Of a stretch of DNA of 64,000 nucleotides, positions 36,001 through 39,000 are shown piece by piece. Numbering within the stretch: position 1 is the stretch's first letter; every line of letters begins with the position of its first letter. This DNA comes from Vulcanimicrobiota bacterium (GTDB taxonomy: Bacteria; Vulcanimicrobiota; Vulcanimicrobiia; Vulcanimicrobiales; Vulcanimicrobiaceae), in NCBI GenBank assembly GCA_963723515.1, contig CAVRQT010000002.1:64001-128000 (forward strand). Reading direction: 5' to 3'. A program made the position numbers.

Positions 36001-39000
36001 CGGGTGCTGATCCTGCCAACGCTCGGCTCGCGCTGCGAGCCATTCGAAATTCTCGAAAACGTACGGAAGGCCGCGACGAACCTCCGCGACGACATCGCGC
36101 AGCAACCGCCAGTAAAGATGGACGTTCCACCACTCGGTCTGAAGAAAAACCTTCTCGTCGATGAGCCCGCTGCGCACGAAGGAACCGACATGGTTATACA
36201 TATCGCAGAGATAAAGTTCCGGATGCTGGCGGCGGTCGACCGGAATTTCGCGCAAGCTAGCGACAAACTATTCGTCCGTCATCCGATCGCTCCAGATCGT
36301 GCCGAATGTAGTTGACCAACTCCCGTACAGCGGGATCCATAAGCATGTTGAATGCGCTTTGCAAGCCCGCGAGTTGGTTCGAAAGCCGAATGTGGCGAAG
36401 TTGTACAAACGCTGCGATTGCGGTCGCAGCGATGACGACAAATGTCCCTATCGCGGCGATCGTGCTCCAAGCTTCGAGCGACATCCCGGGCTGGTTCCTT
36501 TAGGTCCTATAAAATACCGTTACATGAACGGTACTTACGGACGATGCGCTGAAAGGACGGCGTAATGAGCAAGGTTCGCGTTGCAGCGTTTTCAGTTTCA
36601 CTCGACGGGTTCGGCGCCGGGCCGAGGCAGGACTTGAACAATCCACTCGGTGTTCGCGGCGAAGAACTTCACGGATGGTTCTTAGAGACGGAAGCGTGGA
36701 ATCAGATGCACGGTCAGAACGGCGGAAGCCGCGGCATCGATAATGATTTCGCGGTCCGATCTTTCGAGAACATTGGCGCTTGGATATTAGGACGAAACAT
36801 GTTCGGCCCCATTCGCGGACCTTGGGAAGACGATTCCTGGAAGGGGTGGTGGGGAGACGAGCCGCCGTACCACACACCGGTCTTCGTGCTCACGCATTAT
36901 GCGCGATCGCCGCTTCGGATGCAGGGCGGCACGACGTTCTACTTCGTCACCGACGGCATCGAATCGGCTCTGCAACAAGCGAAAGTGCGGCCCAAGGCAA
37001 AGACGTTCGAATCGGCGGTGGCGTCTCAACAATACGCCAGTATCTGCTGGGCACCATATTGATGAGTTGCAGCTTTCAATGTCGCCCGTGCTACTGGGCG
37101 ACGGTGAACACCTGTTCAACGACATTAACTTGCCGGCGCTAGGCTTTAATTCGATCGAGCGAGTTCCCGGCGAGCGCGCGACCCACGTCGTCATTAGGAA
37201 GGCCTGACGTTAAACGCGGGTTGGGAGCGCTTCAGTCCCGTTTGGCTGCGTCTCGGCACGGAGTCGAACACCGCTCCGCGCCAGTGAAAACCCCTACGGA
37301 CAGTCGTGCCGCTGTGGGAACGCACGCCAAGCGCGGTTTGCTGCGATTTGGGCACCGTGAACATCGCCCGGATGACCGTTAAGATACGCCGATCCAGATT
37401 GCGCCGAGGTAATGCGTATCTGCGCTCCTTCGGCAACACATCGCCGAATGAAGACATTGTGGATCAGCGGTAGGTATTTCTCCGTGGAACGAAACTGTGC
37501 GAGAGCCTGCGTGTATTTGTGCCGGTCCATAAGTCGCTCTCCCGGCGCCCAACTCGCTTGTACTTCGTCGATTGCAGGTTGATCCGCTCCAAAATGAACG
37601 CATGCGCGCACATCGGACGGGAAGAACACAGCTAAGCTCAATGCGACATATGCGGCGCAGATTGAGAGCCTGCTCATAGCTACATAATCTGCGTACCTCA
37701 CGTCAGCTTCCTCCGGCGTCCTACCGCCGCTGCGTGGAACGCATTGATATCTCTTCAGCGCGTGCAACGGGTGAGATAACTCATGGGGGACTAGTCGTCT
37801 GCGCTGCAGAGAGCGATTGAAAACCGCTGGGGCGCTTCGATGGTGTTGACTGGCGGCTTGATACCCCGTCCAGCCCCGGGTTCGATTCCCGGGCGCTCCA
37901 GCCGCCGCAGCGCTTTGCTGTTGTGAAGTCGTGAGACGTGTGGTATTGTCGACTGGGGTATCAAGCCGAAAGACACATTGAAACGCGCGAGGCGTCGCAG
38001 TAATGCGGCGCCTCGTTTATTTAGCGGCAGCCGCTGTCATCGACCGAGACGCCTCAGCTTCTTTGCCTCGACGGACTCGTCCGCCCTTGGACAAGCTCAG
38101 GATGACAAAGAGTTGCGCGCTATCGGGCAGCGCAGCGGCGTTAAGCCGTTGCTTTATGCGCCTTCGGTTGTGTTTCCGCCCGCAGTTGGCCGCACGCGGC
38201 GGTGATATCGCGGCCCATGTTCGCGCGCACCGTCACCGGTACGCCGGCCGCTTCTACGATCGCCGCAAATTCCCAAATCCTTGCATCCGGCGTAGCGCCA
38301 AAATTCCCGTCCGGCGTCGCGTTGTATGGGATCAGGTTCACATGATAGAGCCGCCCGCGCATCAACGCAGCCAACTCCTGCGCCTGTGCAGGCGAATCGT
38401 TCATGCCGGCGAGCATCACGTACTCGAAGAACACTTTGCGATTTGTCTTCTCGATGTAACGCTCGCAGGCACTCATTAGCTCGTAGAGATTCCAGCGCCG
38501 GTTCACCGGCATCATCTGCGAGCGGAGCGCGTCATTGGGTGCATGCAGCGAAATCGCCAAATTGACCTGAACCGCCTCCTCAGCAAACCGATCGATCTTC
38601 GGCACGACGCCGACGGTGGAGATCGTGATGTGACGCTGCCCTAAGCCGAAGCCGCGCGGATCGTTCAGCAAAGCCACCGCATCCATGACGGCGTCGTAAT
38701 TGGCGAACGGCTCACCCATGCCCATAAAGACGATGTTTGTTATGCGCTTGCCCTTTTGCGCAAGTGTTTGTGCAAAGAAGCGTGCCTGTTCGAAAATTTC
38801 CGTGGCGCTTAATTGCCGCGTAAAGCCGCCTTGGCCGGTCGCGCAGAAGGCGCAGCCGTACGCACAACCCGCCTGACTTGAGATGCAGACCGTGTTGCGG
38901 TCGCCGAAATGCTCCATCAAGACCGTTTCTACTTCGACGCGATCGCGCAAAGCGAAGAGCGCTTTTGTAGTTTGCCGATCGTTCGAGCGCTGCACCGTAA

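What a model noticed while it worked through the whole genome (the two positions that open the first line are those of the whole stretch)
37785..38025. tRNA-Ala-like RNA paired with its own antisense RNA: an RNA-only toxin-antitoxin-like module
The genome holds three unannotated RNA modules (C2:101829-102022 +, C2:835229-835053 -, and a divergent one at C3:1038748-1038600 -). Each is a promoter, a 68-72 nt tRNA-like RNA with the alanine identity elements (G3.U70, A73) but an Ile, Val or Asp triplet in the anticodon position, then a second promoter, a short RNA complementary to the D and anticodon arms of that same copy, and a terminator. The pair is widespread in Vulcanimicrobiaceae and co-varies, as expected of a tRNA-mimic or mistranslating toxin with an RNA antitoxin.
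Evidence so far: ARAGORN calls only one copy (as tRNA-Ile, no Rfam tRNA score); Rfam gives nothing above E 0.06. Pattern in 24 of 60 family genomes, control 0; the model finds it in 10 of 19 family genomes, 1 of 2 of a sister family, 0 of the other 49, up to 5 copies per genome, some in tandem; 91 loci in GTDB, the 80 listed mostly labelled as this phylum. RNAalifold on 23 copies: 27 pairs, 13 with two-sided changes; G.U at 3:70 in 23 of 23. Anticodon-position triplets of 99 copies: GAT 68, GAC 16, GTC 10, CAG 2, GAG 2, CAC 1. Longest pairing of the anticodon arm with the downstream RNA (G.U allowed): 12 or more in 80 of 96 cognate pairs, 6% of non-cognate pairs; the three copies here pair best with their ow [...]
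(Added by a program. Inside this text positions count along the whole contig: contig position 64,001 is position 1 of the stretch shown here. "Call 12" and the like, gene names such as g00115 and contig names such as C1 are that model's own, and its searches are not shown. The text may have been shortened before it was handed on; [...] marks where a part breaks off. The agent that wrote the report below was given it as the finding of a first reader that could run no searches.)

Follow-up and report, generated by a model that had tools for sequence, protein, structure and literature searches.

The report
Alanine tRNA with its own anti-tRNA
These soil-type bacteria, and a few phages, carry a tiny two-RNA unit: an odd transfer RNA that looks built to put alanine at codons for other amino acids, and a separately promoted short RNA that pairs with exactly that tRNA's anticodon arm, which points to an undescribed, still untested RNA-only poison-and-antidote system.

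Summary
Confirmed and extended. Window 37829-37900 is a 72-nt tRNA-shaped RNA with alanine identity (G3.U70 in 74 of 74 copies, A73 in 73) and an Ile anticodon. A second promoter (65 of 74; shuffles 0.07), a short RNA complementary to that copy's anticodon and D arms, and a terminator follow. The short RNA carries the matching codon in 110 of 116 copies over nine triplets.

New here: D stem plus anticodon-arm layers sum to 12 in 116 of 125 copies (4+8, 3+9, 5+7), the count recalled for working tRNAs. Related modules occur in low-GC metagenome contigs and three phage contigs, also in convergent and divergent layouts, where the partner can only act in trans.

Best reading (0.57): an alanine-inserting missense tRNA toxin held in check by an anti-anticodon RNA. 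Expression, charging, decoding and toxicity are all untested; C33 in 35 of 116 and a bulged stem argue for weak decoding. No Rfam family reaches its cut-off and ten literature searches found no description. The scan's index showed no look-alike by place or sequence, only loosely related notes.

The parts
37792..37820 (+). Predicted promoter 1: -35-like TAGTCG (37792-37797), 17-nt spacer, non-consensus -10-like GATTGA (37815-37820)
   Evidence: Motif TT[GT]nnn-N14-16-G[GT]GA[TAG] upstream of 94 of 124 copies, shuffles mean 1.4, max 6; this copy scores 16.7 on a matrix built without it. Promoter function inferred.
37826..37828 (+). 3-nt leader GCU that can pair with A73 and the next two bases (37900-37902), extending the acceptor stem in the precursor
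   Evidence: All three pairs possible in 103 of 125 copies
37829..37900 (+). 72-nt tRNA-like RNA: 7-bp acceptor stem with G3.U70 and A73, 1-nt connector, 4-bp D stem with 5-nt loop, long anticodon arm, 2-nt linker, 5-bp T stem with UUCGAUU loop; no encoded CCA
   Evidence: CCA encoded in 0 of 125 copies; this copy alone folds 4.9 kcal/mol better as a long hairpin than as the cloverleaf, while 70 of 92 copies are within 1 kcal/mol
37837..37849 (+). D arm (4-bp stem, loop UGGUG)
   Evidence: other clades have different, still pairing D stems
37850..37873 (+). Anticodon arm, 8 layers with one bulge; anticodon GAU at 37860-37862 in a U-U-GAU-A-C loop
   Evidence: 6 of 7 pairs show two-sided changes; layer count
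37921..37949 (+). Predicted promoter 2: TTGTGA, 17 nt, extended -10 TG-G-TATTGT
   Evidence: TTG + TGn + TAnnnT in 65 of 74 copies, shuffles mean 0.07, max 1
37955..37986 (+). Pairing part of the predicted antisense RNA: 37955-37968 pairs with 37854-37867 (codon AUC at 37960-37962 faces the anticodon); 37972-37986 pairs with the D arm and the 5' acceptor strand
37987..38022 (+). Intrinsic terminator-like hairpin (13 pairs) and U-rich tail, 3' end of the antisense RNA and of any read-through transcript
38141..38995 (-). Neighbour, not part of the module: rlmN, convergent
   Evidence: TIGR00048 337 bits, cut-off 290; an rlmN orthologue lies downstream and convergent at 31 of 78 loci

Best explanation
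An RNA-only toxin-antitoxin-like module. Shown from sequence: a conserved compact tRNA fold with alanine identity and a non-alanine anticodon, and a partner RNA with its own promoter and terminator that is complementary to that copy's anticodon loop, 5' stem strand and D arm. Inferred: (1) the tRNA is trimmed by RNase P, gets CCA, and is charged with alanine by the host AlaRS; (2) EF-Tu brings it to the ribosome, where it reads Ile (or Val, Asp, Leu, Phe, Arg) codons and inserts alanine or stalls there, which harms growth; (3) the partner, made from a near-consensus promoter, starts pairing at the anticodon loop with its free 5' end, opens the anticodon and D arms and so inactivates the tRNA; in the tandem layout the read-through transcript also folds back on itself; (4) loss of the gene or a block of transcription lets the short RNA fade first and frees the tRNA.
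For: G3.U70 in 74 of 74 although U70 was not in the search pattern, A73 in 73 of 74; G3.U70 is described as sufficient for AlaRS charging and as causing Ala mistranslation on other tRNAs (PMC11415595 passage). D stem plus anticodon layers sum to 12 in 116 of 125 while the split changes. Loop bases look like decoding loops: pyrimidine at 32 in 103, U33 in 80, purine at 37 in 110, G or C at 34 in 115 of 116; no alanine anticodon among the 116. Partner carries the exact codon in 110 of 116 with the register chosen without the anticodon. Convergent (L301, L314), divergent (L253, L335) and upstream (L382) layouts, each with a -10 box 3-10 nt before the helix. Five broken tRNA copies keep promoter 2, partner and terminator; the three copies seen without a partner are broken remnants (read by eye); 124 of 125 copies in the parsed set pair beyond the 5th percentile of shuffles. 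Patchy presence (53 of 150 family genomes by score), up to 6 copies, tandem arrays; three phage copies beside lysis or integrase genes. Missense allo-tRNAs arrest and kill E. coli when induced (PMC5389517 passage). Host has AlaRS, a CCA/poly(A) polymerase family gene and normal Ile, Val, Asp and Ala tRNAs.
Against: No expression, charging, decoding or growth data. C33 in 35 of 116, the last stem pair is formed in only 27 of 65, the stem is bulged, and there is no room for the usual U8.A14 and 15.48 contacts, so decoding may be weak or absent. The window copy itself prefers a long hairpin by 4.9 kcal/mol. The 12-layer rule is recalled; I saw the paper only in reference lists, and the D/anticodon boundary is partly a matter of definition. 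Copies are kin, so counts overstate independence; GAU in 72 of 116 may be descent. Most compact G3.U70 RNAs outside this family have no partner within 300 nt (11 modules among about 120 RNAs), so the fold can exist without one. 97 of 150 family genomes have no strong hit. Some charged irregular tRNAs did not decode in E. coli (PMC5389517 section 16).
Confidence: 0.57

Rival explanations
1. Same molecules, but a tunable switch and not a poison: low-level alanine mistranslation is turned on under stress (for dormancy or proteome variation) and the partner RNA sets the level.
For: Promoter 1 has a conserved non-consensus -10 box, which could mean a special sigma factor or activator; C33 in 35 of 116 would damp decoding (non-U33 is said to curb mistranslation, PMC11415595); long-kept chromosomal sites such as rlmN, 31 of 78 loci.
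Against: The motif is barely enriched elsewhere in the genome (147 sites against 90-102 in shuffles), so no regulon is seen; many non-cross-reacting copies per genome and decay of the tRNA before the partner fit addiction modules better.
Confidence: 0.16
2. A charged but non-decoding decoy derived from the tRNA-like domain of tmRNA: it ties up SmpB, EF-Tu, a synthetase or an anticodon nuclease, and the partner RNA masks it.
For: A tmRNA-like GG-N2-3-UCGAC motif in 95 of 125, also in the host tmRNA; alanine identity is shared with tmRNA (recalled); TLD-only RNAs with the same ends occur in phages (L075, 81 bits to RF00023); irregular loop features listed above.
Against: The GAC connector before the T stem, present in the host tmRNA, is in 0 of 125; the motif lies in a D stem and is replaced in other clades; the tmRNA model does not list the window copy at E <= 1 and scores the C3 copy below the three tRNA-Ala genes; arm length is held constant and the triplet moves among several amino acids, which no single protein target explains; the partner aims at the anticodon, not the D loop alone.
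Confidence: 0.15
3. Reversed polarity: the short RNA is the effector (a codon-bearing trap for host tRNA, as CreT is said to be) or a target leader, and the tRNA-shaped RNA is its sponge or a C4-like antisense regulator.
For: The short RNA displays a real codon and has the stronger-looking promoter; C4 RNA is an RNase P-processed three-stem antisense RNA (PMC5320573 passages).
Against: Each short RNA pairs far better with its own partner than with any ordinary host tRNA (-39.8 against -22.4 kcal/mol for the window copy; -43.6 against -32.3; -44.7 against -30.5); it follows the changing stem of its own copy; it ends in a terminator about 30 nt after its start with no gene behind it; it survives beside broken tRNAs, which a toxin should not; a sponge would not need alanine identity.
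Confidence: 0.07
4. A neutral relic: a decayed tRNA or integration-site fragment with an inverted repeat, or a local change of the genetic code.
For: Remnants and tandem copies exist; REP-like palindromes lie near some copies.
Against: Two-sided changes in 10 of 23 pairs, invariant G.U, conserved second promoter, non-tandem layouts; different anticodons within one genome beside normal tRNAs and patchy presence exclude a stable code change.
Confidence: 0.05

Closest known systems
Type VIII toxin-antitoxin systems: SdsR-RyeA of E. coli (PMC8610362 section 3.8 passage; PMC10767807 passages)
   Same: Two small RNAs, one masking the other by antisense pairing; no protein partner found at the locus.
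   Different: SdsR is an mRNA-targeting sRNA and overlaps RyeA on the opposite strand; here the masked RNA is tRNA-shaped with alanine identity, the genes do not overlap, and four layouts occur. Toxicity here is untested.
CreTA (PMC8501985, search listing and start of abstract only; PMC10767807 passages)
   Same: RNA-only pair acting on translation through tRNA biology; same- or opposite-strand layouts.
   Different: CreT sequesters a host tRNA and CreA is a CRISPR-like guide that represses transcription through Cas proteins; here the suspect toxin is itself a tRNA, the partner pairs with it directly, and no Cas family was among 146 flanking frames.
Allo-tRNAs and irregular polycistronic tRNAs (Mukai et al., PMC5389517; review PMC7609411)
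   Same: Identity and anticodon disagree; some carry G3.U70 and insert Ala; missense forms are toxic in E. coli; found near toxin-antitoxin genes in soil bacteria.
   Different: Allo-tRNAs have 8/4 or 9/3 acceptor branches, a long variable arm and mostly G73/U73; these have 7/5, a 0-3-nt linker and A73. The words antisense and complementary do not occur in that paper's main text.
tRNA-ProX with ProRSx of Streptomyces and Kitasatospora (PMC11415595 section 17)
   Same: Natural bacterial tRNAs of dual identity that mistranslate, with non-standard base 33; harm depends on the codon.
   Different: Proline identity, A34 anticodons, a dedicated synthetase gene beside them; no RNA partner described. 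Here alanine identity, G/C34, no dedicated synthetase.
tRNA-Pyl and mitochondrial tRNA-Ser(UCN) architecture (PMC7609411 passages)
   Same: 0-1 nt between acceptor and D stem, 4-5-nt D loop, lengthened and sometimes bulged anticodon stem, very short variable region; both decode on ribosomes.
   Different: Their anticodon stems have 6 pairs; here 7-9 layers follow the D stem directly. Different identity, and a partner RNA.
tmRNA tRNA-like domain (Rfam RF00023) and TLD-only RNAs
   Same: G3.U70, A73, similar T arm, GG..UCGAC motif in most copies; a plausible ancestor.
   Different: Paired D stem, no GAC connector, a fixed-length arm ending in an anticodon-like loop; the host has its own full tmRNA and SmpB.
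C4 antisense RNA of phages P1/P7 (PMC5320573 passages)
   Same: About 77 nt, three stem-loops, RNase P processing, variable loop that sets pairing specificity.
   Different: C4 blocks translation of a target mRNA and is not described as aminoacylated; here the paired RNA is a terminated 60-70-nt RNA with no gene.

Membership tests
Type VIII TA | Both components are small RNAs at one locus | tested here: inconclusive
   Predicted from promoters, fold and terminator; no transcript data.
Type VIII TA | Antitoxin pairs with the toxin RNA | tested here: met
   Complementarity and co-variation; pairing is computed, not measured.
Type VIII TA | One RNA inhibits growth and the other relieves it | not testable with these tools
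   Needs expression tests.
SdsR-RyeA | Overlapping genes on opposite strands and sequence kinship | tested here: not met
   Genes are separate; no Rfam family at cut-off.
CreTA | Linked to a CRISPR-Cas locus, with a repeat-flanked guide antitoxin | tested here: not met
   No Cas family among 146 frames flanking 73 loci (longest frame per side, 1.5 kb) or 30 frames near the three own copies.
Allo-tRNA | 8/4 or 9/3 acceptor branch | tested here: not met
   7-bp acceptor and 5-bp T stem, 100% paired in 50 copies.
Allo-tRNA | Long variable arm | tested here: not met
   2-nt linker in the 65 copies of 72 nt.
tRNA-ProX | Proline identity and adjacent ProRSx | tested here: not met
   Alanine identity; no fixed synthetase neighbour; class II synthetase hits flank 3 of 73 loci, and in the window the nearby one is glycine-tRNA ligase.
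tmRNA / TLD-only RNA | Unpaired D loop and GAC connector before the T stem | tested here: not met
   D stem 99.5% paired; GAC connector 0 of 125. That these bases bind SmpB is recalled.
tmRNA / TLD-only RNA | Score over the RF00023 cut-off | tested here: not met
   C3 copy 21.1 bits against 47; window copy not listed.
Canonical tRNA (RF00005) | Score over the gathering cut-off; 8-12-nt D loop, 5-bp anticodon stem | tested here: not met
Alanine-accepting RNA (functional class) | G3.U70, A73, G1-C72, G2-C71 | tested here: met
   74 of 74 and 73 of 74; G1 and G2 were fixed by the pattern, their partners were not.
Alanine-accepting RNA (functional class) | Is aminoacylated | not testable with these tools
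   Needs a charging assay.

The most novel reading that the evidence does not exclude
A so far unrecognised, widespread class of protein-free toxin-antitoxin systems in which a compact alanine-accepting tRNA of a new 12-layer architecture rewrites a chosen sense codon as alanine, and a dedicated anti-tRNA RNA silences it by codon-anticodon pairing. Swapping the anticodon arm and partner makes new, non-cross-reacting pairs, and the system spreads on phages and may act as abortive-infection defence when transcription stops.
Probability: 0.4. Interest if true: 0.93.

Novelty: categorically new. Interest (0 to 1): 0.86.

Why it matters
It would be a tRNA used as a toxin and controlled by a natural antisense RNA aimed at its anticodon, a kind of regulation I found no report of in the searches named. 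It gives a direct test of whether bacteria keep deliberate mistranslation under dedicated control, adds a tRNA shape that annotation tools miss (ARAGORN finds one of three copies, Rfam none), and offers many natural orthogonal tRNA/anti-tRNA pairs as small switches for genetic-code work.

Tried and rejected
Sequencing runs: none was listed, no RNA holder listed; no evidence either way. BLAST of the module against annotated plasmids and phages: no match. Earlier scan notes by place and by sequence: nothing. Consensus promoter scan found neither promoter; they show only by comparison. Search for a regulon of promoter 1: 147 sites against 90-102 in shuffles, inconclusive. Model hits near 30-38 bits were mostly ordinary tRNAs, so the raw tallies 88 of 150 and 70 of 150 were not used. 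Rows dropped: L004 (different structure), L054 (short flank), L197 (TLD-like, no partner), five candidates without G.U at 3:70 (ordinary tRNAs or mis-registered rows); nine of 125 did not parse to 12 layers, five of which give GAC, GUC or GAU at 12 layers when re-centred. In the wide set, helices of 14 pairs at L297, L309, L334, L342, L350, L352 and L381 were judged chance by eye (9 or fewer Watson-Crick pairs in a row, no fitting promoter seen); L360 with 12 pairs was accepted for its promoter and D-arm match. Third viral scan: 0 of 17 compact RNAs had a partner. Stand-in for the missing tmRNA: rejected, the host has one. Functional link to rlmN: not supported, 47 of 78 loci lack it. A text source for the 12-layer rule was not found.
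Full report
OBSERVATION. The window holds at 37829-37900 (+) a 72-nt sequence that folds as a compact cloverleaf with G3.U70, A73 and GAT in the loop of a long arm; behind it lie a promoter-like site (37921-37949), a stretch complementary to that arm and to the D arm (37955-37986) and a terminator-like hairpin (37987-38022). 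No terminator was found between the two parts. The genome (2.1 Mb, 88% complete) has two more copies, with GAC and GUC. ARAGORN calls one of the three; no Rfam family reaches its cut-off for the window copy or for ten related tRNA-plus-partner modules among 14 loci. The host has ordinary tRNA-Ile, Val, Asp and Ala, a full tmRNA, SmpB, AlaRS (in pieces, probably assembly frameshifts) and a CCA/poly(A) polymerase family gene.

THE tRNA-LIKE RNA. A pattern scan of GTDB gave 67 loci; after dropping L004 and L054 and adding the three own copies, 74 copies remained. G.U at 3:70 was found in 74 of 74 although the pattern did not specify the 3' strand, A73 in 73 of 74, and 65 of 74 were 72 nt long. 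In 50 aligned copies 97.3% of cells pair and 10 of 23 pairs change on both sides, 6 of 7 in the anticodon arm but only 1 of 4 in the D stem; slid controls give 37-53%. A covariance model added divergent clades with other, still pairing D stems. In the resulting 125 non-redundant RNAs the D stem and the layers of the anticodon arm sum to 12 in 116: 4+8 in 107, 3+9 in 5, 5+7 in 4. Twelve is the count for an ordinary tRNA (5 stem pairs, 26.44, 4 D pairs, 8.14 and 15.48); that count and the compensation rule of Steinberg et al. 1997 are recalled, and I saw that paper only in reference lists. The boundary between the two stems is partly a matter of definition and the minority splits may be few events. 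Triplets in the 116: GAU 72, GUC 18, GAC 13, GAG 4, GAA 3, CAG 2, CAC 2, UGA 1, GCG 1; none is an alanine anticodon. Position 33 is U in 80 and C in 35; 37 is A in 108. CCA is encoded in 0 of 125, and a 3-nt leader can pair with A73 and two further bases in 103 of 125. Against a sound cloverleaf in this very copy: it folds 4.9 kcal/mol better as a long hairpin, whereas 70 of 92 copies are within 1 kcal/mol.

THE PARTNER RNA. The longest helix between arm and downstream segment is 12 or more pairs (G.U allowed) in 67 of 74 cognate and 6.5% of 5392 non-cognate pairs; with Watson-Crick pairs only, 41 of 74 against 1.0%; five cognate pairs reach fewer than 10 in a row. With the register chosen without the anticodon, the partner shows the exact codon in 110 of 116, over nine triplets, and Watson-Crick counts exceed all 300 permutations at positions 24-39 (kin are not independent). 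Promoter 2 (TTG, extended TG, TAnnnT) is in 65 of 74 against 0.07 in shuffles, and the helix starts 5-8 nt after the -10 box in 64 of 71, where a transcript would begin. Within genomes the own partner is best in 46 of 47 copies (the window was picked for the cognate, so this is biased). Partners pair much less well with ordinary host tRNAs. In a read-through transcript of the window copy the fold-back beats the cloverleaf by 19 kcal/mol. Promoter 1 is a conserved TTG box with an unusual GATNGA-like -10 box (94 of 124; shuffles 1.4); no regulon was evident.

DISTRIBUTION AND CONTEXT. By score (40 bits or more, one tRNA-Lys hit removed; not every hit inspected) 53 of 150 sampled family genomes carry it, up to 6 copies, some in tandem. 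In a phylum sample it was in 4 of 9 genomes of a second family of the same class; of 70 genomes of other families 12 had weak hits, 7 of which I inspected: six ordinary tRNAs and one TLD-like RNA without partner. The phylum name comes from record titles. Three of the 53 genomes (G021, G028, G133) are flagged unpublished, and loci L112 and L134 from two of them entered the 125 set; no conclusion depends on them. Flanks are mostly housekeeping or variable genes, with rlmN convergent at 31 of 78 loci, one transposase and no Cas family among 146 frames. Five broken tRNA copies keep an intact partner cassette and the three copies seen without a partner are broken remnants (by eye, from 20 chosen loci).

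BEYOND THE FAMILY. Eight metagenome RNAs of 55 compact ones, three of 53 (partly overlapping set) and none of 17 have a partner by my reading; among 50 with full flanks 8 reach 14 pairs downstream (one judged chance) against 1.0% of 588 non-cognate pairs. All 11 have a -10 box ending 3-10 nt before the helix. Six lie on contigs of 35-48% GC, unlike the 60% of this genome; their hosts are not established. Layouts are tandem downstream (L218, L267, L281, L292, L296, L360), tandem upstream with its own terminator (L382), convergent across a shared terminator (L301, L314) and divergent (L253, L335); in the last two layouts the partner cannot be a fold-back of the same transcript. The three phage copies sit at the edge of lysis or tail genes, one between endolysin and integrase in a complete 42-kb genome. 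In the wide set the automatic layer count gave 12 for 6 of the 11 modules, 13 for two, 11 and 14 for one each and so is less clean. Most compact RNAs there lack a partner; 8 compact ones carry the true alanine anticodon UGC and none of these has a partner helix of 14 pairs, which fits a fold that decodes, but the pattern favours alanine-type acceptors and the contrast is too small to be significant.

MECHANISM. Shown: fold, identity marks, constant arm length, co-varying partner, two promoter motifs, terminator. Inferred: processing, alanylation, delivery to the ribosome, harm, and neutralisation. G3.U70 is described as sufficient for AlaRS and as a cause of alanine mistranslation (PMC11415595), and missense allo-tRNAs kill E. 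coli (PMC5389517), so an unopposed copy is expected to be harmful if it decodes. I put 0.57 on a mistranslating or codon-stalling toxin with an RNA antitoxin, 0.16 on a non-lethal switch, 0.15 on a non-decoding decoy, 0.07 on reversed polarity and 0.05 on a relic.

COMPARISON AND NOVELTY. It works like a type VIII pair in the SdsR-RyeA sense, but toxicity cannot be tested here and it fails the tests for SdsR-RyeA, CreTA, allo-tRNA, tRNA-ProX, tmRNA and canonical tRNA. Ten searches of the held library found no description of a tRNA with a dedicated anti-anticodon RNA; subscription papers are largely missing from that library. What I saw: PMC5389517 passages and section 16, supplements not read, and its Figures S5-S6 of irregular tRNAs could hold relatives; PMC7609411 passages; PMC11415595 passages and section 17; PMC9976931 passages; PMC10767807 and PMC8610362 passages; PMC5320573 passages; PMC2777451 and PMC10424219 passages; PMC8501985 listing only. 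Earlier notes of this scan describe an alanine-type tRNA paired with its own leader in CPR bacteria and alanine-type suppressor tRNAs in phages; I did not check them and do not count them as support.

VERDICT. A real, selected, two-RNA module of a kind I could not find described; function inferred but sharply testable. Interest 0.86.

Noticed in passing
L241, L242, L324, L362, L375, L377, L385, L387 and other loci: A wide class of compact (66-72 nt) G3.U70 tRNA-like RNAs in phages and metagenomes, mostly without a partner RNA, with UGC, CUA, UUA, ACC, UCG, UCU and other triplets; some may be alanine-inserting stop suppressors.
   Followed up: partly
L075:1498-1580 (-) and many 75-83-nt hits; L197: tmRNA-like RNAs reduced to the tRNA-like domain, keeping the D-loop motif and the GAC connector; L075 scores 81 bits to RF00023 and lies beside a Pistol ribozyme.
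   Followed up: partly
G000:C1:47840-48193: The host tmRNA has an unusual T loop and is missed by ARAGORN though Rfam scores it 92 bits.
   Followed up: no
window about 38035-38108: A REP-like palindrome follows the terminator; similar repeats lie near other copies and elsewhere in the genome.
   Followed up: no
window 30844-34911 and 36565-39294; G000:C2:554031-555559: Several housekeeping genes (pyruvate phosphate dikinase-like, glycine-tRNA ligase, rlmN start, AlaRS) are split across frames, probably assembly errors.
   Followed up: no
window 34848-37207: The stretch between glycine-tRNA ligase and rlmN holds variable small genes (YjbR-like, DUF4760, RibD-like in a relative) and looks like an insertion hotspot across the family.
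   Followed up: partly
L162, L165, L169: Copies in one group of genomes have one extra base 5' of the triplet, giving an 8-nt-like loop that could read four bases or shift frame.
   Followed up: no
L292 upstream flank: A second tRNA-like end with its own partner cassette lies directly upstream, so tandem arrays also occur on low-GC DNA.
   Followed up: no
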